Origin: Candidatus Peribacteria bacterium
GTDB taxonomy: Bacteria; Patescibacteriota; Gracilibacteria; Peribacterales; Peribacteraceae
DNA: 64,000 nucleotides
Direction of reading: 5' to 3'
Assembly (NCBI GenBank): GCA_043776335.1
Contig: JAYVRL010000006.1
Span: 33,011 to 97,010, forward strand
Shown one piece after another: positions 6,534-23,202 of the stretch. A model generated the notes under the pieces. The model ran no database searches. It was not told the origin of the DNA and saw only the letters and a program-made list of their open reading frames with translations. How positions within the stretch are numbered: position 1 is the stretch's first letter; every line of letters begins with the position of its first letter. Both the position numbers and the translations under genes were made by a program.

Positions 6534-7667
6534 TTACGTCACGATCTCCTGAAGCCTCTTCTGAGCGACCGCATTCTTGATCTCCAGACCGAGCCTCTCG
6601 CCGACACTCAAGCTAGAGCCGTACAGATAACCCGAATACGGCGTCGCAGCGATACCGGGGGAACCGGGAATGCGAAGCGACACGTCAAAGATTATGATGT
6701 CCTCTTTCCCCTCTTCGGCGACGACCGCGCCTTGGAGCGCGAACGGACCGACGATGCCTTTGCCGCTCGGGTCCAGATCCTTCGGGAGTTTCTTGCATGC
6801 CGCGACGAACTTCTCGCCGAGATCGAACGCCTTCTCAAGGATCGACTCCTTCACCGTGCACGCGATGTGTCCCGTCTCGATCATCTTGAGCGGAACGTGT
6901 TTCAGCGCGGTCATCTGCTGATCGGCCGTCATGCGCAAAAAACCGTCGAGATTCGTCTGGCGTCGCGTGTCCGTGCCGAGGAGCTCTACTTCGCCCGTGA
7001 GCGGAGAGTAGAAGAAGTTGAAGTTCACGGGAGCGCCGACGATGAACTCTTCGATCGTCGCTTCGCGCCAGTTCTTCGACACTTTCCCCTCTTTCTCGAG
7101 TTTGGAACCGATCGCTTCGTAACTCGCGGCGTCGGTTGCGATGAAGAATGCGCGCTCGTAACTGCGCGTCGCTTCGGCGGCTTTCACGAGCACGGGTCGA
7201 TCGATGTCTTTGGCATTCTTGAACATTTTTGGGATGCGAATGCCGGCTTTGTTCAGAAGATCGTACTGATTGAACGGCTGATCGCGCTCTTCCAATTTCA
7301 AAAGCGTCCTCGAACCGACGATCGGGACGGCGAAGTCGTTCTCGACCTTTGAAAAATCATCAAAATAGACCCAGAAATAACGATTATGCACAAAAATTGT
7401 ATTCATATTTTGCAGCTTCTGCTGGACGTCTTTAGAAAGAACATCCTGAAAATCCTTCACCTCGATCACGTCATCGACGCAACCTCGTCCGTCGCGCGTT
7501 TTGAAATGCTTCGCGTAGGTTTTCTCTCTTCCCTTTCTCGCGACGCAGACCGTTTTGAATCCGAAACGCTTCACGCCGTGACACACGTCGAGCGCACTGT
7601 GTCCGCCAAGCACGCCGACGGTGATGTTTTTCAAATCGTAGCCGTTGAGGATTGCGGAAAGATCCAT
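6534..7667 (-). CDS. purP: archaeal-type FAICAR synthetase PurP (ATP-grasp, formate-dependent AICAR formylation), paralogue 1
   Basis: 377 aa. Matches the PurP family as I remember it from Methanocaldococcus: GGHSALDV..., VNFNFFYSPLTGEVELLGTDTRRQTN, GPFALQG. Confidence 0.8.
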   Translation of the reverse strand: MDLSAILNGYDLKNITVGVLGGHSALDVCHGVKRFGFKTVCVARKGREKTYAKHFKTRDGRGCVDDVIEVKDFQDVLSKDVQQKLQNMNTIFVHNRYFWVYFDDFSKVENDFAVPIVGSRTLLKLEERDQPFNQYDLLNKAGIRIPKMFKNAKDIDRPVLVKAAEATRSYERAFFIATDAASYEAIGSKLEKEGKVSKNWREATIEEFIVGAPVNFNFFYSPLTGEVELLGTDTRRQTNLDGFLRMTADQQMTALKHVPLKMIETGHIACTVKESILEKAFDLGEKFVAACKKLPKDLDPSGKGIVGPFALQGAVVAEEGKEDIIIFDVSLRIPGSPGIAATPYSGYLYGSSLSVGERLGLEIKNAVAQKRLQEIVT

Positions 7668-16150: not shown

Positions 16151-16555
16151 TCAATGCTCTTCGACAGGCTGCAGCATTTTACCGAGCTTTCCCATCACCG
16201 GACGATCGACGTACCACTCCTCTCCGGTTTGGCTGAAGGAAATTTCGAGAGAACTGTCCTTGTGCTTGCCCTGCGTGCGGACGCCGCAACGATCGACCGG
16301 ACCGAGCAAGAAAGTCACGTCGCTTGTCGCCGTATTCTGAAAGAAAAAACAAACGTTCTCTTCGTTTTTTCCTTGAAATTCGAAACGAAGAAACGTGTGC
16401 GGGTTTGCGGGACTGAATGAATCCGTCCCCGTCTTCTTGAGAACCCCCTGATACGCAGTGCCGCCGATATACGGCAACGCCTTGCGGCTGATCTCCCCTT
16501 TATAATCGGGGTTGTTGGCGACTGGCTCGGCAGACTCACGAATGCGATTTGTCAT
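16151..16555 (-). CDS. hypothetical protein
   Basis: ORF 16151..16636 trimmed to ATG 16555 (MTNRIRESAEP...). The upstream in-frame part is K/R-rich and runs through a terminator hairpin. Confidence 0.5.
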   Translation of the reverse strand: MTNRIRESAEPVANNPDYKGEISRKALPYIGGTAYQGVLKKTGTDSFSPANPHTFLRFEFQGKNEENVCFFFQNTATSDVTFLLGPVDRCGVRTQGKHKDSSLEISFSQTGEEWYVDRPVMGKLGKMLQPVEEH

Positions 16556-16634
16556 GAGATGAATGGGATGGAATATGTGTGTCAGATTGAGTTTTTTTCG
16601 TCGTTTTTTTCGGAGGAATGCTCTCCTCATAAAC

Positions 16635-16659
16635 AAAAAGACCGGCGAGCGGTCTTTTT
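16635..16659. terminator. bidirectional intrinsic-terminator-like hairpin
   Basis: AAAAAGACCG-gcgag-CGGTCTTTTT: a 6-bp stem flanked by an A5 run on the left and a T5 run on the right. Confidence 0.6.
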
Positions 16660-16714
16660 GTATTTGTGTTCACCTCCTCGGCTATCAATGAATGAATGGT
16701 TGGAAACGTTCACT

Positions 16715-17018
16715 GAGCCTTCGTGCGGAGGGTGCACATGGGAGATGAGCCCCGAATCCCTGCCTTGCTGCGGTCTCTTGTTTCTCCTCGTGACCAGACG
16801 AAGTCCCCGTACCGGTTCACCGCGCGATGCCTAAGGCTTCGGGGGAACACTGGGGAGAAAGGGGATGCACCCCCCTGAGCTCATCTCTTCAGAAGGGCGA
16901 CGTTGCAGAGCAGAGAGGGTGGCGATCACGGGGCGAAGCCTCGGTGACGACTACCCTCTCAACTTCCGACTACCTGTGATGCGAAGGATCTTATGTGTGG
17001 TGGCTCCGGAGCCGTCAC
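16715..17018 (+). ncRNA. candidate structured RNA of unknown class (strand uncertain)
   Basis: No ORF of 60 aa or more spans this ~500-bp gap in an otherwise tightly packed segment (the track's 91-aa ORF 16559..16834(+) only reaches its left edge). Helices: 11-bp long-range 16740-16750/16879-16889; 9-bp 16781-16789/16852-16860; 6-bp 16804-16809/16840-16845; 48-nt hairpin 16913-16960; 9-bp hairpin 16997-17018. Several internal G-U pairs exist only on the plus strand. Confidence 0.4.
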
Positions 17019-17176
17019 GATGTGTGTTGGTGTGATCTCGATTTCTTTCTTTTGAAGAAATCATGCCATTGTATTCTCTAGAGGAAATTCAGCAAGCAGA
17101 TAGGATGGTAAAAACACGGAATTGTTGTATTTGAACAAATGAGTTGTTCAGCAAAACGCGTGCTATCATCGACCAG

Positions 17177-18628
17177 ATGGAAGAATCCCACCACCCGCAC
17201 CTCGTTCGATCGATGATCCTCGCAGTCTGCGGGCTGCTCCTCGCATTCCTCAGCGTCGTATTGGTCGTGGTCTACATCCGCACGGTCAGTCCCCGAACAC
17301 TGAGTTTGGCGTATCGCATCGACAATGAACGCGTGCTGTTCTTCGAACGCACGACGGATCCAGTGGCCTTCATTCGCGGCATCGCCGCCTACGCTCCGCT
17401 GATCGCCCCCGCTCCGCTTCCTTCGGTGAAAGCATTGCCTCAGGGAGTGTCATACGAATTCGCCTTGTTGTATCCGGTGCCCGGTCGCGCGCCGCAGTGG
17501 GCGATCTACGTACACACGAAAGAAAAGACGCACGTCACGATCGTCTCGGAGAACGATCCGCAGATCTTCCTGCCGATCAAAGAGATCAATCGATCCCTCG
17601 GACGTTCCTCCTTCTATAGAGGTCACAACGAAAGCTCTGCACCGAACGCCGTGTACGCGGATTTGAAAACGTTGCCGATCCAAGGAAGCGGCGCATTGGC
17701 GCTGGCGAAAGCCATCGTCACGCCGTATTCGCGCATCATGCTGACATGGAAAGGATCCGTCATGAATCTGATCGCCGAAAAAAAGACACCTGTCCTGTTC
17801 GCGGCGAACCGACCGTCGGTGTCTCTGCTGACGTTGCCAAACATGACGCTTCTGTCTCTCGCATCCAACGATCCGGCCGCGCTGCTCGCGTCACTGGACT
17901 CCGCTCTCGAACAACGAGACGCGAAGCTGGCCGACGGGCTGAAAGGCATCGTCCGGAACATGATCGACGAAGCCGCTCATCGCAGCGACCTCGCGGGCAT
18001 GACGACGGATCTCTTCTCCGAACCCGCCAAGGTTGCGATCGTCCGCGAAGGGAGCGCCATTCATACGCTCCTCATGGGACGCGCCCGCACTGCGAAAACA
18101 TTGAATACATGGCTTGAGGGCGTGCGTGCGATGACCACGCCGACGGAAATCCGCACCCAACACTTCTTCAAAGAAAACATCCGCACGGACGTGAAACCGG
18201 CCGAAACGGAAAAAATGAAAACAATACACGATTGGTCGACGGTGTCCGTCGGCGCATCGGGGAGCACCATGCACTTCTTCATCGCCGTGCATGGCGAACA
18301 ATTCGCCATCTCCGATGATCGCTCCCTGCTCGAAACCGGCATCGGACTCGTGCAGCAATCCGTGTCCCTCACCCCACCGCCCTCTCGGAGGACGTTCATC
18401 GGCAGCGTCGATCCCGCATGGGTGCTTTCCGTGGCGGACTCGATGGTGCCGTTTCTCGCAAACGACCTGCGATCACTCACCCACGCGCTCCTTGGAAAAA
18501 ACATCGCGCATCTGAGCTGGGTGGCGACGGACGGAGCTTCGGCGGCGACGTTCACGTGGTCTGCGTCTCCCCTGACGATGCCTTTGAGCACTTCCGATCT
18601 CCCGCCGAGAAAGACTGGAAAGCCGTGA
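17177..18628 (+). CDS. membrane-anchored hypothetical protein
   Basis: ORF 17144 (TTG)..18628 with preferred ATG at 17177. An extended -10 (TGcTATCAT, 17161-17169) ends 7 nt upstream. N-terminal TM MILAVCGLLLAFLSVVLVVVYI. Not SecD-like, as it has no C-terminal TM bundle. Confidence 0.6.
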   Translation: MEESHHPHLVRSMILAVCGLLLAFLSVVLVVVYIRTVSPRTLSLAYRIDNERVLFFERTTDPVAFIRGIAAYAPLIAPAPLPSVKALPQGVSYEFALLYPVPGRAPQWAIYVHTKEKTHVTIVSENDPQIFLPIKEINRSLGRSSFYRGHNESSAPNAVYADLKTLPIQGSGALALAKAIVTPYSRIMLTWKGSVMNLIAEKKTPVLFAANRPSVSLLTLPNMTLLSLASNDPAALLASLDSALEQRDAKLADGLKGIVRNMIDEAAHRSDLAGMTTDLFSEPAKVAIVREGSAIHTLLMGRARTAKTLNTWLEGVRAMTTPTEIRTQHFFKENIRTDVKPAETEKMKTIHDWSTVSVGASGSTMHFFIAVHGEQFAISDDRSLLETGIGLVQQSVSLTPPPSRRTFIGSVDPAWVLSVADSMVPFLANDLRSLTHALLGKNIAHLSWVATDGASAATFTWSASPLTMPLSTSDLPPRKTGKP

Positions 18629-18653: not shown

Positions 18654-19553
18654 ATGGATTTTCTCAAACCAGCCAAGTACTTCTTTATCATCTCGACGAG
18701 CCTCACGGTCCTCTCAATCGGACTCGTGTTCTACCCCGGTCCGCGTCTCTCGATCGAGTTCACGGGCGGCACGCGCATGGAGCTCAAAGTGAGCGCTCCG
18801 AGCGTGACGACGGCATCCGTCTTGTCGGCGTTGCAGACCTTCAAAGAAGGAGAACTGAACCCGACGGTGAACAAAATGTCGAACGGCGACTTCCTCGTGC
18901 GCGTGAAAGACATCAGCGACGACACGCACAAAGCGTTGATCACGCATCTCACGGCGCAGCTCGGACAGATCGAGCAGGTGCAATACACCACCATCGGACC
19001 CACGGTCGGCGCAACGCTGAAAATCCGCGCCGCCTACGCCATCATCGCGGCATCGCTCGGCATCATTCTGTATCTCGCCTTCGCCTTCCGCAAAATCCCG
19101 CGCAAATACAGCCCATTCAAATTCGGCATCGTCGCGGTCGCCACATTGCTCCATGACGTGATGGTGACGGTCGGTGTCTTCGTCATCCTCAGCTACCACT
19201 CGACGTTTGAAGTCGACACGCTGTTCATCACGGCATTGCTCACGATCCTCGGCTACTCGGTGAACGACACGATCATCATCTTCGACCGTATCCGCGACAA
19301 TCTCTACGTGCAGGAACGCAAAGAAGAATTCGCCGTCATCGCGAATCGCTCGGTAAATCAAGCATGGAAGCGATCACTGTACACCAGCACCTCCACGCTC
19401 ATCATGCTCTGCTCGCTCTTCTTCCTCGGCAGCGACTCGCTCCATTGGTTCGTGCTCGCGCTGATCATCGGCATCATCCTCGGAACGTACTCGAGCATCT
19501 TCGTCGCCACTCCGCTCTTGGTCTACTGGAACGATCGAAAACCGCGTCACTAA
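18654..19553 (+). CDS. secF: protein translocase subunit SecF
   Basis: 299 aa. N-terminal FFIISTSLTVLSIGLVF...IEFTGGT signature followed by a 5-TM C-terminal bundle (LHDVMVTVGVFVIL, GYSVNDTIIIFDRIR). Confidence 0.85.
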   Translation: MDFLKPAKYFFIISTSLTVLSIGLVFYPGPRLSIEFTGGTRMELKVSAPSVTTASVLSALQTFKEGELNPTVNKMSNGDFLVRVKDISDDTHKALITHLTAQLGQIEQVQYTTIGPTVGATLKIRAAYAIIAASLGIILYLAFAFRKIPRKYSPFKFGIVAVATLLHDVMVTVGVFVILSYHSTFEVDTLFITALLTILGYSVNDTIIIFDRIRDNLYVQERKEEFAVIANRSVNQAWKRSLYTSTSTLIMLCSLFFLGSDSLHWFVLALIIGIILGTYSSIFVATPLLVYWNDRKPRH

Positions 19554-21231: not shown

Positions 21232-23202
21232 TCAGTTCGTCCATTTCATCGTCACCTTGCGTTCAGGATTCGCCGCTTTGGCCATGTGACAACCGTCTCG
21301 ATGCACGCTGATGATGCCGGTGCGCGTGATGATGCCGACGATCTTCTCGACTTTCGCGGTGCCGTCGTCTGGACTACAGCATTTGGCGAAACGATACGGC
21401 ATGCTGAGCGGCTGCCCGTCGAAAACAACCAAGCTCTTTTGCTTGCCAAGAGCGTGCGCTTTGGCGGTTTTCGAAGGTGATCGGTTCGAAGGCTTCGACG
21501 GAACATGATCGATCTGCAAATGGCGCAGAATCGACGACGTGCGGATGGATCCCATGCCGACTTTCACGAGCAAATCTTCGCGCTGCTTGATGTTCTGCTC
21601 TTTCCCGTCGAACGAATGCAACACCGAGAGTTCGTTGTCGAGTTGCGGCATGCCTCGCGTTTTCAATTCGGCATTCACGCTGTCTCGACCCTTGAGCAAA
21701 AATTGCGCGCGATTGTGCGAAAAAAAGTACGCCTTCAATTTGGATTTCGCGGACGGAGTCGCGAGTTCTTCCAGCCACTGCAGGGCGGGACGCGGATGCT
21801 TGTGCGTGATGATGTCGACCACGTCGCCGTTCTCCAATTTATGGCTGATCGGCACGATCGAACCGTTCACGCGAGCGGCCTTGAACTTCAACCCGAGATC
21901 CGTGTGCAACGAAAATGCGAAATCCAGCGGCGTTCCGCTGTCGGGGAGCTCGATGATGTCGCCCTTCGGCGTGAGCACGTAGATATGATCGACCAAACGG
22001 ATGTTCTGATCGCTCTCCTCTGATTTCTGACCGATCGTCTGCTGCTTCAAGAGAACGTCGCTGAGTTGGAGCTGAGTCGCGGATCGCAGCACTCCGTCTT
22101 CTCCCTTCCCCTGCTCTTTGTAGAGCCAGTGCGCGGCGACGCCGTATTCGGCTTCGCGATGCATCTCGGACGTGCGAATCTGCACTTCGATCATCACGTT
22201 TTTCGGCGCGTCGGGGAGACCCATGAGCGACGTGTGCAGACTCTGATAACCGTTGGGCTTCGGGAAGCTGATGTAATCCTTGAACCGATGCGAGATGGGG
22301 GTGCCGATGCGATGAAGAAGCCCGAGTGACTGATAACAATCGTTCATCGTCGGCACGACGACCCGAATGGCGAACAAGTCGTTGATCTTCGTGAGGCCGG
22401 TGACGCTCTTCGTCCGCATCTTCTGGAAGATGCTGTACGGCTGCTTTTCTCTGGCCATCACTTCGGCCTCGATCCCCTCTTTCACAAGAAAGCTCTTCAA
22501 TGCGATCACTGTCTTTTCGAGAAACAAGCCGTTCTCTTCGTGAATCTGCGACAATTGATCTTCGATGTGCGCCGCATCGGTCGCGTAGCATTCGGGAAAC
22601 GCGGACTTCTCAAGACGATACTTGATCGCGTAAATGCCGAGACGCGCGGCCACCGGCGCAAAGAGTTGCAACGATTGTCGACAGAGTCTGGTGCGATACT
22701 CGGACTTCACCCGATCAAGATGCTCCATGTAGTAACACTCGATCGTGAGCGCGATGAGCAAAATGCGAATGTCGTCCGAGATCGAGACGATCATGATCTT
22801 CATGTCATCGACGGACTTTCGCCAATCGCTGGTGTGCAAATGTGAGAGAAGATGGAGACGGCTGACCATGTCGCGAACGGAACGGCCGAACTCTTCGGAA
22901 ACGCGATCGAGCATGTGATCCGGAACCCTGAGTGTGTGTTGCAAGATGCACGCGATCACGGCGTCCTCGTCCGGGCAAAACTCCACGAGAAGCTCCGTCA
23001 CGGCCACCGCATGCTCGAAAAGAGTGACTCCCGTGAACAAATCGAAGGTTCGCTCTCCGTACGCCTCTTTCGCAAACTGCAACGCTTTGAGACAGCGCTG
23101 CTCCTTGAGAGCCGGAATCCCTTTCTTGATCCGTTCGACGGCGGAATCGATGGAGTGGAGAGTGGCCATGGAGAACGCACATGGTACCACATCCTTCTTC
23201 AT
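21232..23202 (-). CDS. relA: long RelA/SpoT homologue, RelA-like (intact synthetase motifs, degenerate HD hydrolase motif), with TGS and ACT regions
   Basis: Synthetase motifs DLFAIRVV, NGYQSLHTS, EVQIRTSEMHREAEYGVAAHWLYKE. TGS region (VLTPKGDIIELPDSGTPLDFAF). The hydrolase region reads ILQHTLRVP where LLHDVxEDT is expected. An alternative start is ATG 23169. Confidence 0.9.
   Translation of the reverse strand: MKKDVVPCAFSMATLHSIDSAVERIKKGIPALKEQRCLKALQFAKEAYGERTFDLFTGVTLFEHAVAVTELLVEFCPDEDAVIACILQHTLRVPDHMLDRVSEEFGRSVRDMVSRLHLLSHLHTSDWRKSVDDMKIMIVSISDDIRILLIALTIECYYMEHLDRVKSEYRTRLCRQSLQLFAPVAARLGIYAIKYRLEKSAFPECYATDAAHIEDQLSQIHEENGLFLEKTVIALKSFLVKEGIEAEVMAREKQPYSIFQKMRTKSVTGLTKINDLFAIRVVVPTMNDCYQSLGLLHRIGTPISHRFKDYISFPKPNGYQSLHTSLMGLPDAPKNVMIEVQIRTSEMHREAEYGVAAHWLYKEQGKGEDGVLRSATQLQLSDVLLKQQTIGQKSEESDQNIRLVDHIYVLTPKGDIIELPDSGTPLDFAFSLHTDLGLKFKAARVNGSIVPISHKLENGDVVDIITHKHPRPALQWLEELATPSAKSKLKAYFFSHNRAQFLLKGRDSVNAELKTRGMPQLDNELSVLHSFDGKEQNIKQREDLLVKVGMGSIRTSSILRHLQIDHVPSKPSNRSPSKTAKAHALGKQKSLVVFDGQPLSMPYRFAKCCSPDDGTAKVEKIVGIITRTGIISVHRDGCHMAKAANPERKVTMKWTN

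What the first reader, a model, noticed from the sequence alone, without database searches (positions are those of the whole stretch)
16637..17163. ~500-bp ORF-free, helix-rich region: candidate large structured RNA of no class I can name
In a segment where genes are usually separated by fewer than 100 bp, this gap holds no credible ORF. The track's only entry here, 16559..16834(+), merely enters its left edge. The gap is packed with mutually compatible helices.

Helices seen:
- GGGAGATGAGC (16740-16750) pairs with GCTCATCTCTT (16879-16889).
- ATCCCT (16756-16761) pairs with GGGGAT (16861-16866).
- TTTCTCCTC (16781-16789) pairs with GGGGAGAAA (16852-16860).
- TCCCCG (16804-16809) pairs with CGGGGG (16840-16845).
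- A 48-nt hairpin runs GAGAGGGT...ACCCTCTC (16913-16960) with an inner 9-bp stem.
- A 9-bp hairpin lies at 16997-17018.

Strand evidence conflicts. Four internal pairs are G-U on the plus strand and would be A-C on the minus strand, which favours a plus-strand RNA. On the other hand, a TTGCTG-16-TACAAT promoter (17068-17095, minus strand) and the bidirectional terminator at 16635-16659 would frame a ~430-nt minus-strand transcript. That transcript could be a long leader for the 134-aa gene at 16555.

I could not find the signature motifs of RNase P RNA, tmRNA, SRP RNA, 6S RNA, T-box or cobalamin riboswitches.
Basis: seen in the sequence. Interest (0 to 1): 0.6.

Follow-up and report, generated by a model that had tools for sequence, protein, structure and literature searches.

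The report
New large structured RNA of Peribacteraceae
The "empty" gap holds a free-standing gene for a roughly 430-base, intricately folded non-coding RNA, read from the minus strand, that almost every member of one family of tiny-genome groundwater bacteria (Peribacteraceae) keeps, usually in two copies; it matches no described RNA family and its job is unknown.

Summary
Its DNA is 72-85% identical across about 37 genera of Candidatus Peribacteraceae. A covariance model of the 106-nt core hits 63 of 65 sampled genomes of that family, mostly twice, and none of about 725 other Patescibacteria. No Rfam 15 family matches, even at E<=10.

Predicted folding energy is no better than chance. The support is comparative: 95% of cells pair in 78 distinct sequences, with 216 compensatory cells against 54 expected.

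The RNA is on the minus strand, about 17063 to 16633:
- G-U pairs number 73 on minus against 7 on plus.
- A TTGCnn-N16/17-TACAAT promoter is conserved, with a palindromic site ending 34-36 nt upstream of the -35 box.
- It ends in an intrinsic terminator.

The fold contains a 5' hairpin, a variable domain, a kissing-loop pair, an invariant H-type pseudoknot and a 3' junction.

It is not a leader. The 134-aa gene downstream occurs only in this genome, and elsewhere the next gene is convergent. It is not SRP RNA, because the lineage lacks Ffh and FtsY. Function is unknown; a trans-acting protein-bound or self-assembling scaffold is my best guess. No transcript data could be obtained.

The parts
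17132..17150 (-). 19-bp palindrome TGAACAA-N5-TTGTTCA, a candidate binding site for a dimeric transcription factor. It lies 36 nt upstream of the -35 box.
   Evidence: A related palindrome (consensus TGWAYAC-N5-GTATTCA) ends 34-36 nt upstream of the -35 box in 20 of the 24 loci where a simple pattern found a site, in both paralogues. The protein that binds it is unknown.
17090..17095 (-). -35 box, TTGCTG
   Evidence: A TTGnnn box (mostly TTGC) sits at the same place in most of the 52 homologues. The simple consensus scan does not call it, because this promoter matches only 8 of 12 positions.
17068..17073 (-). -10 box, TACAAT, with a 16-nt spacer. The predicted transcription start is about 17061-17064.
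   Evidence: TAC(A/G)AT is conserved 16-18 nt after the -35 box and 5-6 nt before the 5' hairpin. The start site is inferred, not measured.
17040..17062 (-). P0, the 5'-terminal hairpin GAUUUCUU-loop-AAGAAAUC
   Evidence: The stem covaries between homologues: GAUUUGC/GCAAAUC, GAACCC/GGGUUC, GAUCAC/GUGAUC.
17019..17039 (-). CA-rich linker GAGAUCACACCAACACACAUC
   Evidence: A CACC(C/A)ACACAC-type stretch is conserved in the alignments. No pairing partner was found.
16997..17018 (-). Hairpin with a CCGG loop (GUGACGGCU-CCGG-AGCCACCAC)
   Evidence: A CCGG-loop hairpin with different stems (GGCU/AGCC, GUGC/GCAC, GCAC/GUGC, GGGU/ACCC) occurs in 25 of 52 homologues, against 12.5% of shuffles and 1-14 for other palindromic tetramers.
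16976..16990 (-). Conserved block GAUCCUUCGCAUCAC
   Evidence: Consensus GAUCMUUMACAYCRC in the alignments. Its pairing is not resolved.
16913..16960 (-). Variable domain closed by GAGAGGGU/ACCCUCUC (48 nt here, up to about 150 nt elsewhere)
   Evidence: The closing stem GAGAGG/CCUCUC is conserved and its inner pairs covary (GGGU/ACCC, GGAC/GUCC, GGAU/AUCC).
16905..16912 (-). P1, 5' strand UGCUCUGC. It pairs with 16761-16768.
   Evidence: RNAalifold pairs, with rare compensatory changes (G-C to A-U, U-A to C-G).
16868..16898 (-). Hairpin B. The stem is GCCCUUCUGA/UCAGGGGGGU. The loop AGAGAUGAGC (16879-16888) kisses hairpin A.
   Evidence: The stem covaries heavily, for example columns 25/60: C-G 18, G-C 13, A-U 7, U-A 6. 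Loop-loop complementarity is specific to cognate pairs.
16852..16856 (-). Pa, 5' strand UCCCC. It pairs with GGGGA at 16804-16808.
   Evidence: Columns 11/63 show C-G 27, U-A 4, U-G 1 in A1; the matching columns in A2 show C-G 72, U-A 6.
16816..16847 (-). Pb/Pc hairpin UUCCCCC...GGUGAA
   Evidence: All 11 of its pairs show compensatory change.
16811..16816 (-). Unpaired palindromic ACCGGU in the internal loop between Pa and Pb
   Evidence: CCGG is kept in 76 of 78 distinct sequences and ACCGGU in 59 of 78. A role in tertiary or intermolecular pairing is inference.
16772..16803 (-). H-type pseudoknot. S1 is CUUCGU (16798-16803) with ACGAGG (16786-16791). S2 is GGUC (16792-16795) with GACC (16772-16775). 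Loop 3 is AGAAACAAGA (16776-16785).
   Evidence: In S1 one pair is U-G 59 / C-G 19 and another is U-A 52 / G-C 9. In S2 one pair is C-G 54 / U-A 15 and another is G-C 29 / A-U 3. CGAGGAGAAACAAG is identical in 77 of 78 sequences.
16761..16768 (-). P1, 3' strand GCAAGGCA
   Evidence: See the P1 5' strand.
16740..16753 (-). Hairpin A, GGGG-CUCAUCU-CCC. Its loop pairs with the loop of hairpin B.
   Evidence: Stem columns 188/202 show G-C 22, A-U 20. Kissing pairs covary: CUCAUUC/GAAUGAG, ACCUC/GAGGU, UCCUC/GAGGA, CUCCUU/AAGGAG.
16666..16737 (-). 3' domain. H1 is GUGCACCCUCC (16727-16737) with GGAGGUGAACAC (16666-16677). It encloses H2, GGCUCA...UGAUAGCC (16680-16719).
   Evidence: H1 cognate duplexes average -12.0 kcal/mol against -9.2 when permuted, with 0 of 3000 permutations as good. 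The H2 inner stem shows A-U 16, G-C 16, C-G 10.
16634..16659 (-). Intrinsic terminator with A- and U-tracts on both sides (bidirectional). The RNA 3' end is at about 16633-16636.
   Evidence: The scan finds the hairpin. It is conserved with covarying stems in nearly all homologues. In other genomes the TPR gene converges on it.

Best explanation
Window 16633-17063, minus strand, is a free-standing gene for a roughly 430-nt highly structured non-coding RNA. It belongs to a family not described before and restricted to Candidatus Peribacteraceae. A second, diverged paralogue lies on another contig, G000:C8 at about 22.0-22.6 kb.

**Shown**
- A conserved sigma-70-type promoter with an upstream palindrome.
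- A hairpin at the very 5' end and an intrinsic terminator at the 3' end.
- Covarying helices P1, Pa, Pb/Pc, hairpins A and B, H1 and H2.
- Covarying kissing loops between hairpins A and B.
- An almost invariant H-type pseudoknot core.
- No dependence on the downstream gene.

**Inferred (about 35% for this part)**
- The RNA acts in trans.
- The peripheral clamps (the kissing loops, P1 and H1) hold the invariant pseudoknot, the A-rich loop and the unpaired ACCGGU in a fixed three-dimensional shape. That shape serves as a docking platform for a protein partner or for another copy of the RNA, making it a protein-bound or self-assembling scaffold like other large ornate bacterial RNAs.
- Expression is tuned by a dimeric transcription factor at the palindrome centred near -80.
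For: **Conservation**
- DNA identity is 72-85% in 19 of 41 relatives, with a second copy in most of the genomes that match.
- The covariance model R1 hits 63 of 65 family genomes and 0 of 336 others in the class. In a phylum sample it hits 12 of 12 family genomes and 0 of 389 others.
- The pattern scan returns Peribacteria, Peribacteraceae and Peregrinibacteria MAGs. The 10 hits in other phyla fail the model.

**Structure**
- A1: 93.4% of cells pair and 16 pairs show compensatory change, with 0 of 500 shuffles as good.
- A2: 95.0% of cells pair, with 216 compensatory cells against 53.7 expected.
- Alifold on 50 sequences predicts 49 pairs, 30 with compensatory change.
- The kissing loops and H1 are specific to cognate sequences.

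**Strand**
- 73 G-U cells on minus against 7 on plus.
- The promoter is conserved.

**Stand-alone and non-coding**
- The downstream neighbour is a convergent TPR gene in 78 loci, and the 134-aa gene is unique to this genome.
- Indels are never multiples of three, and no frame is conserved.
- No Rfam family matches.
Against: - There is no transcript evidence.
- The MFE is not better than shuffles.
- This copy's promoter matches only 8 of 12 consensus positions, and the simple scan does not call it.
- The 5' third is only partly resolved.
- Nothing bears directly on function. No partner protein, ligand or target was identified, and the scaffold or self-assembly idea rests on analogy plus the conserved palindromic CCGG.
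- Alignments fitted to a model lean towards that model's structure.
Confidence: 0.8

Rival explanations
1. It is a protein-sequestering (sponge-type) regulatory RNA. Two paralogous RNAs are made from factor-controlled promoters and titrate an RNA-binding protein through their conserved single-stranded CA-rich stretches, as RsmY/RsmZ, CsrB/CsrC or CrcZ do.
For: - There are two paralogues per genome.
- A conserved palindrome lies upstream of the promoter, like the upstream activating sequence of rsmY/Z (the resemblance is from my own knowledge).
- CA-rich stretches are conserved at 17019-17039 and around 16990.
Against: - Known sponges are built from repeated short hairpin motifs with little other conservation. 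This RNA has an invariant pseudoknot core, kissing loops and long-range helices.
- One CA-rich stretch, GAACAC, turns out to be paired in H1.
- No candidate protein was identified.
Confidence: 0.12
2. It is a cis-acting leader or riboswitch. A long minus-strand 5' UTR would control the 134-aa gene at 16555 through the terminator at 16634-16659.
For: - The order promoter, 430 nt, terminator, 80 nt, ORF is on one strand in this window.
Against: - The 134-aa gene has no homologue at any other locus and no Pfam domain.
- In 78 loci the next gene is a TPR gene on the opposite strand, converging on the terminator.
- The paralogue sits in a different context.
- I saw no alternative pairing between H1 and the terminator.
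Confidence: 0.03
3. The RNA is transcribed from the plus strand, as the first reader's G-U argument suggested.
For: - One invariant G-U that exists only on the plus strand (G16809 with U16851) would extend helix Pa.
- The terminator hairpin also reads as a terminator on the plus strand.
Against: - In supported pairs, G-U cells number 73 on minus against 7 on plus. Pairing is 93.4% on minus and 86.0% on plus.
- On the plus strand the terminator would sit at the 5' end, no conserved promoter lies to the left, and no terminator lies to the right.
Confidence: 0.04
4. It is a very divergent member of a known RNA family, such as SRP RNA, 6S, RNase P, tmRNA, OLE, ROOL, GOLLD, raiA or HEARO.
For: - Neither SRP RNA model finds anything in this genome, so that slot looked open.
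- GCAGCAAGGCAG resembles the SRP helix-8 string AGCAGCCAAGGCAG (recalled from memory).
Against: - No Rfam 15 family matches at E<=10 on either strand.
- RNase P RNA and tmRNA are found elsewhere in the genome.
- SRP RNA is missing in 25 of 25 genomes of the class, and so is the Ffh/FtsY GTPase domain, while the control genomes score positive. My own motif search of the genome also found none. With no Ffh there is no SRP protein for such an RNA to bind.
- The SRP-like string is the 3' strand of P1, not an apical helix.
Confidence: 0.03
5. It is not an RNA gene. It could be a conserved DNA-level element (a regulatory region or mobile-element remnant) or a decayed or small protein gene.
For: - There are two copies per genome.
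- Stop-free stretches of 68-205 codons occur by chance in this GC-rich DNA.
Against: - Substitutions preserve base pairing, not codons.
- Zero of 37 indel runs are multiples of three, and no frame is conserved.
- Synteny is fixed between the 494-aa gene/secF operon and the TPR gene across genera, with no repeats or transposase.
- Copy number is stable at one or two.
Confidence: 0.02

Closest known systems
OLE RNA (Rfam RF01071), about 610 nt, in extremophilic Firmicutes
   Same: It is a large, ornate, strongly conserved bacterial non-coding RNA with many helices and a restricted lineage. Its function stayed unknown for a long time, and it works as a ribonucleoprotein (from my own knowledge).
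   Different: There is no covariance-model match. OLE lies inside an operon next to its partner gene oapA. This RNA is a separate transcription unit with its own promoter and terminator, occurs in two paralogues, and is found in a candidate-phyla lineage with 1.0-1.6 Mb genomes.
ROOL (RF03087) and GOLLD (RF01998) RNAs
   Same: They are 0.5-0.8 kb structured RNAs of unknown function. Recent cryo-EM work shows they self-assemble through loop-loop contacts (from my own knowledge). This RNA has kissing loops and a conserved palindromic CCGG that could do the same.
   Different: There is no covariance-model match. ROOL and GOLLD are often in prophages or near tRNAs and are patchily distributed. This RNA is chromosomal, syntenic and nearly universal in one family. 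Self-assembly was not tested here.
raiA motif RNA (RF03072)
   Same: It is a stand-alone structured non-coding RNA with pseudoknots, conserved synteny and unknown biochemical function.
   Different: raiA is about 200 nt and found in Firmicutes and Actinobacteria. There is no covariance-model match, and the neighbouring genes differ.
RsmY/RsmZ and CsrB/CsrC regulatory RNA pairs
   Same: They are paralogous free-standing RNAs with rho-independent terminators and a palindromic upstream activating site in front of the promoter.
   Different: Those RNAs are arrays of GGA hairpins with little tertiary structure. This RNA has an invariant pseudoknot core and long-range helices.
Bacterial SRP RNA (RF00169, RF01854)
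   Same: It would have been the one universal RNA not found in this genome, and a short sequence string looks alike.
   Different: There is no model match. The lineage lacks Ffh and FtsY altogether. Loss of SRP subunits in many CPR bacteria is on record (PMC8080830).

Membership tests
Any Rfam 15 family (4227 models, including OLE, ROOL, GOLLD, raiA, HEARO, 6S, riboswitches and ribozymes) | The covariance model scores at or near the family's gathering threshold. | tested here: not met
   No hit at the gathering threshold in the window apart from three tRNAs. At E<=10 there are only three chance-level hits of 11-17 bits to unrelated families.
SRP RNA | A helix-8 (domain IV) match to RF00169 or RF01854. 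| tested here: not met
   No match in the region or anywhere in the genome.
SRP RNA | The partner protein Ffh (SRP54 GTPase plus M domain) is encoded in the genome. | tested here: not met
   PF00448 is absent from 25 of 25 genomes of the family and class, while 14 of 14 control genomes score positive. No ORF carries both the DTAGR and GKTT motifs.
RNase P RNA / tmRNA | This locus is the genome's copy of that RNA. | tested here: not met
   RNase P RNA is on C19 at 159 bits and tmRNA on C39 at 75 bits.
cis-regulatory leader / riboswitch | A conserved downstream gene or gene class on the same strand. | tested here: not met
   The downstream gene is convergent in 78 loci, and the same-strand 134-aa gene is unique to this genome.
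cis-regulatory leader / riboswitch | The expression platform competes with the aptamer helix. | tested here: inconclusive
   By eye I saw no complementarity between H1 and the terminator stem. This was not searched exhaustively.
H-type pseudoknot (a structural motif, not a family) | The hairpin loop pairs with downstream sequence, and both stems are supported by covariation. | tested here: met
   S1 shows U-G 59 / C-G 19 at one pair and U-A 52 / G-C 9 at another. S2 shows C-G 54 / U-A 15 and G-C 29 / A-U 3.
Protein-sponge sRNAs (Csr/Rsm, CrcZ type) | Multiple repeated short protein-binding motifs in loops or single strands. | tested here: inconclusive
   CA-rich stretches are conserved, but one of them is paired in H1. 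No repeated hairpin motif was seen.
Self-assembling ornate RNAs (ROOL/GOLLD/OLE type) | Homo-oligomer formation through intermolecular loop contacts. | not testable with these tools
   There is only a lead. Unpaired palindromic CCGG is kept in 76 of 78 sequences, and a CCGG-loop hairpin occurs in 25 of 52.

The most novel reading that the evidence does not exclude
The two paralogous RNAs are the RNA subunits of a new ribonucleoprotein or RNA-only assembly, or a new ribozyme, specific to Peribacteraceae. Its invariant pseudoknot core would be an active or binding site, and its palindromic CCGG elements would join copies A and B into dimers or larger particles. A still bolder version links it to protein export. 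Copy A is always divergently paired with the 494-aa gene/secF operon in a lineage that has lost SRP, so the RNA might take part in a substitute co-translational targeting or export function.
Probability: 0.12. Interest if true: 0.9.

Novelty: categorically new. Interest (0 to 1): 0.7.

Why it matters
- **Large, intricately folded bacterial RNAs are rare.** When solved, they have usually revealed new biochemistry: ribozymes, ribonucleoprotein machines, RNA cages.
- **This one comes from the Candidate Phyla Radiation**, where almost nothing is known about non-coding RNA.
- **Genomes of only 1.0-1.6 Mb spend about 1 kb on two copies.** About 97% of sampled family members keep at least one, which argues for an important function.
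- **The family is well suited to experiment.** It has a sharply defined, invariant 106-nt core, many natural variants for covariation, and a size (430-600 nt) within reach of cryo-EM. It can be tested without culturing the organism.
- **It corrects annotation.** The ORF called at 16559-16834 (+) is spurious.

Tried and rejected
- **Rfam** at the gathering threshold and at E<=10 found nothing relevant.
- **Thermodynamic folding** of either strand is not significant, so MFE structures were not used.
- **SRP RNA.** I pursued this because both SRP models were missing from the genome and one sequence string looked similar. I rejected it when the Ffh/FtsY domain proved absent across the class. The literature also records SRP loss in CPR bacteria.
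- **RNase P RNA and tmRNA** are both found elsewhere in the genome.
- **Leader for the 134-aa gene** is rejected by synteny.
- **Protein coding** is rejected.
- **Regulon of the palindrome.** A weight-matrix scan found 24 matches above threshold, about a dozen of them strong. The best one in the window (7385-7407) lies inside a PurP-like gene, and several flanking 'ORFs' were wrong-strand artefacts, so no regulon could be named.
- **Literature searches** for a Peribacteria, Peregrinibacteria or Patescibacteria non-coding RNA of this kind returned nothing.
- **K-turn reading of GGCUCA...UGAUAGCC.** I considered it by eye and could not fit it to the consensus.
- **Synteny of copy B** was not resolved.
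Full report
**What is there**

Between the 134-aa ORF (16151-16555, minus) and the 494-aa ORF (17144 or 17177 to 18628, plus), no reading frame longer than about 65 codons is open. Rfam 15 finds only three tRNAs elsewhere in the window at the gathering threshold. With permissive filters on 16500-17300 it returns three chance-level hits of 11-17 bits, at E 3.6-8.3, to unrelated families. Single-sequence folding is not better than dinucleotide shuffles: z is -0.24 on the plus strand and -1.16 on the minus strand. By thermodynamics alone, then, the 'helix-rich' impression is no more than chance.

**Conservation**

- The 521-bp stretch matches 19 of 41 related genomes at 72-85% identity, across many genera of one family. 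Most of the genomes that match hold a second, shorter match to the central 160 nt. The window's own genome does too, at G000:C8:22332-22488.
- A scan of species-representative genomes with an 18-base core pattern returns Candidatus Peribacteria, Peribacteraceae and Peregrinibacteria MAGs. It also returns 10 hits in other phyla, about the number expected by chance, and all of them fail the covariance model.
- A covariance model of the 106-nt core (R1) hits 63 of 65 sampled genomes of the family, in 37 genera, and mostly twice. It hits none of 336 genomes from other families of the class.
- In a phylum-wide sample it hits 12 of 12 family genomes and 0 of 389 others.
- In many genera the two copies lie 20-35 kb apart and point towards each other (coordinates). 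In this genus they are on different contigs.

**Not coding and not a leader**

- Among close orthologues, all 37 indel runs in the conserved 290 nt are not multiples of three. The longest stop-free stretch changes strand, frame and position from genome to genome.
- Copy A has fixed synteny. Upstream, and divergently transcribed, lie the 494-aa gene (no Pfam domain) and secF. Downstream, in 78 loci, lies a TPR gene on the opposite strand that converges on the same terminator.
- The 134-aa gene that follows the RNA in this window has no homologue at any other locus and no Pfam domain. The 'long leader' idea therefore fails.

**Strand and ends**

Both paralogues share the same frame.
- At the right end, on the minus strand, there is a TTGnnn (mostly TTGC) -35 box, a 16-18 nt spacer and TAC(A/G)AT. 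Here these are 17090-17095 and 17068-17073, with a 16-nt spacer. A simple pattern finds this promoter in most of the 52 homologues examined.
- This copy matches only 8 of 12 consensus positions, and the simple scan does not call it.
- Five or six nucleotides after the -10 box a hairpin begins whose stem covaries (GAUUUCUU/AAGAAAUC, GAUUUGC/GCAAAUC, GAACCC/GGGUUC, GAUCAC/GUGAUC).
- At the left end is an intrinsic terminator with A- and U-tracts on both sides (16634-16659).
- A 19-bp palindrome (consensus TGWAYAC-N5-GTATTCA; here TGAACAA-N5-TTGTTCA at 17132-17150) ends 34-36 nt upstream of the -35 box in 20 of the 24 loci where a simple pattern found a site, in both paralogues. Its centre is therefore near -80.
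- Within the covariation-supported pairs, 73 cells are G-U on the minus strand and only 7 would be G-U on the plus strand. Pairing is 93.4% on minus against 86.0% on plus.

The RNA is therefore read from the minus strand, from about 17063 to 16633, roughly 430 nt. Homologues run to about 600 nt.

**Fold, in the RNA's 5' to 3' direction** (coordinates checked)

1. P0, the 5' hairpin (17062-17040).
2. A CA-rich linker (17039-17019).
3. A hairpin with a CCGG loop (17018-16997). This hairpin recurs with different stems in 25 of 52 homologues, against 12.5% of shuffles.
4. A conserved block, GAUCCUUCGCAUCAC (16990-16976).
5. A variable domain closed by GAGAGGGU/ACCCUCUC (16960-16913).
6. P1, UGCUCUGC (16912-16905) with GCAAGGCA (16768-16761).
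7. Hairpin B (16898-16868), whose stem covaries heavily.
8. Pa, UCCCC (16856-16852) with GGGGA (16808-16804).
9. The Pb/Pc hairpin (16847-16816), in which all 11 pairs show compensatory change.
10. An unpaired palindromic ACCGGU (16816-16811). CCGG is kept in 76 of 78 distinct sequences.
11. An H-type pseudoknot. S1 is CUUCGU/ACGAGG and S2 is GGUC/GACC. The A-rich loop AGAAACAAGA is invariant apart from its last base: CGAGGAGAAACAAG is identical in 77 of 78 sequences.
12. Hairpin A (16753-16740).
13. A 3' domain in which H1 (16737-16727 with 16677-16666) encloses H2 (16719-16680).
14. The terminator.

**Support for the fold**

| Test | Result |
|---|---|
| Core alignment A1 (32 sequences) | 93.4% of cells paired; 16 pairs with compensatory change; 0 of 500 shuffles as good; slid partners 39-51% paired |
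| Model-based alignment A2 (78 distinct sequences) | 95.0% paired; 216 compensatory cells against 53.7 expected |
| RNAalifold on 50 sequences, P1 to terminator | 49 pairs, 30 with compensatory change |
| Kissing contact, loop A with loop B | cognate -5.4 kcal/mol against -3.7 non-cognate; 0 of 5000 permutations as good |
| H1 | cognate -12.0 kcal/mol against -9.2 permuted; 0 of 3000 permutations as good |

Matched kissing pairs include CUCAUUC/GAAUGAG, ACCUC/GAGGU, UCCUC/GAGGA and CUCCUU/AAGGAG. In the copy-B paralogues of this genus, hairpin A instead carries a GUAA tetraloop and hairpin B is shortened.

- Helix 1 is the kissing contact.
- Helices 5 and 6 stand.
- Helix 2 is not conserved.
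- Helix 3 is contradicted, because GAGAAA varies without compensation.
- Helix 4 had the wrong partner.

**What it is not**

- RNase P RNA and tmRNA are found elsewhere in the genome.
- SRP RNA looked like an open slot, because neither SRP model hits the genome. But no genome of the family or class has it (0 of 25). None has the Ffh/FtsY GTPase domain either (0 of 25, with 14 of 14 control genomes positive). My own motif search of the genome found no such gene. Loss of SRP subunits in many CPR bacteria is already on record (PMC8080830).
- Literature searches found no description of this RNA.
- Earlier notes of this scan describe what appears to be the same family in other Peribacteria genomes. 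I treated those as leads only.

**How it probably works**

Shown: a regulated, free-standing transcription unit that makes a compact, multiply clamped fold around an invariant pseudoknot.

Inferred: it acts in trans. The extreme sequence invariance of the pseudoknot, the A-rich loop and the unpaired CCGG contrasts with freely covarying peripheral helices. That pattern is typical of a surface or pocket that contacts something else, such as a protein, a ligand or another RNA. The palindromic CCGG, together with a frequent CCGG-loop hairpin, suggests either an intramolecular loop-loop contact or dimerisation of copy A with A or with B.

I put about 35% on a protein-bound or self-assembling scaffold, about 12% on a protein sponge, and a few per cent on a ribozyme or ligand sensor. 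None of these could be tested here.

**Verdict**

This is a real, strand-assigned, newly recognised class of large structured RNA confined to Peribacteraceae. Its function is unknown.

Noticed in passing
whole genome G000 and 24 relatives: No SRP RNA (RF00169, RF01854) and no Ffh/FtsY GTPase domain (PF00448) was found in any of 25 genomes of this family and class, several of them 99-100% complete, while the control genomes score positive. This fits a published remark that SRP subunits are absent from many CPR bacteria (PMC8080830).
   Followed up: partly
G000:C8 about 22000-22600 (outside the window; locus L016): This is the second, diverged paralogue of the RNA in the same genome. It has the same promoter, palindrome and core. 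Its 3' domain is different and about 100 nt longer, and a GUAA-tetraloop hairpin replaces the kissing hairpin A.
   Followed up: partly
other Peribacteraceae genomes (coordinates): In many genera the two RNA paralogues lie 20-35 kb apart on opposite strands and point towards each other. In this genus they are on different contigs. I did not examine what the enclosed block encodes.
   Followed up: no
window 16151-16555 (-): The 134-aa ORF between the RNA's terminator and the TPR gene has no Pfam domain and no homologue at the same place in any other locus. It is either a recent insertion or not a gene.
   Followed up: partly
window 17144-18628 (+) and 18654-19553 (+): The 494-aa protein ahead of secF has no Pfam match but keeps its place next to secF, divergent from RNA copy A, across genera.
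   Followed up: partly
window 7385-7407 (+), plus G000 contigs C16, C51, C48, C12, C39, C27, C24: A weight-matrix scan found 24 further matches above threshold to the palindrome found upstream of the RNA promoters, about a dozen of them strong. The one in the window lies inside a PurP-like gene. One on C51 lies between a 195-aa helix-turn-helix-like gene and a 591-aa membrane protein. No regulon could be named.
   Followed up: partly
window 16559-16834 (+): The ORF listed by the track runs across the terminator and the 3' domain of the RNA on the wrong strand. It is almost certainly spurious.
   Followed up: yes
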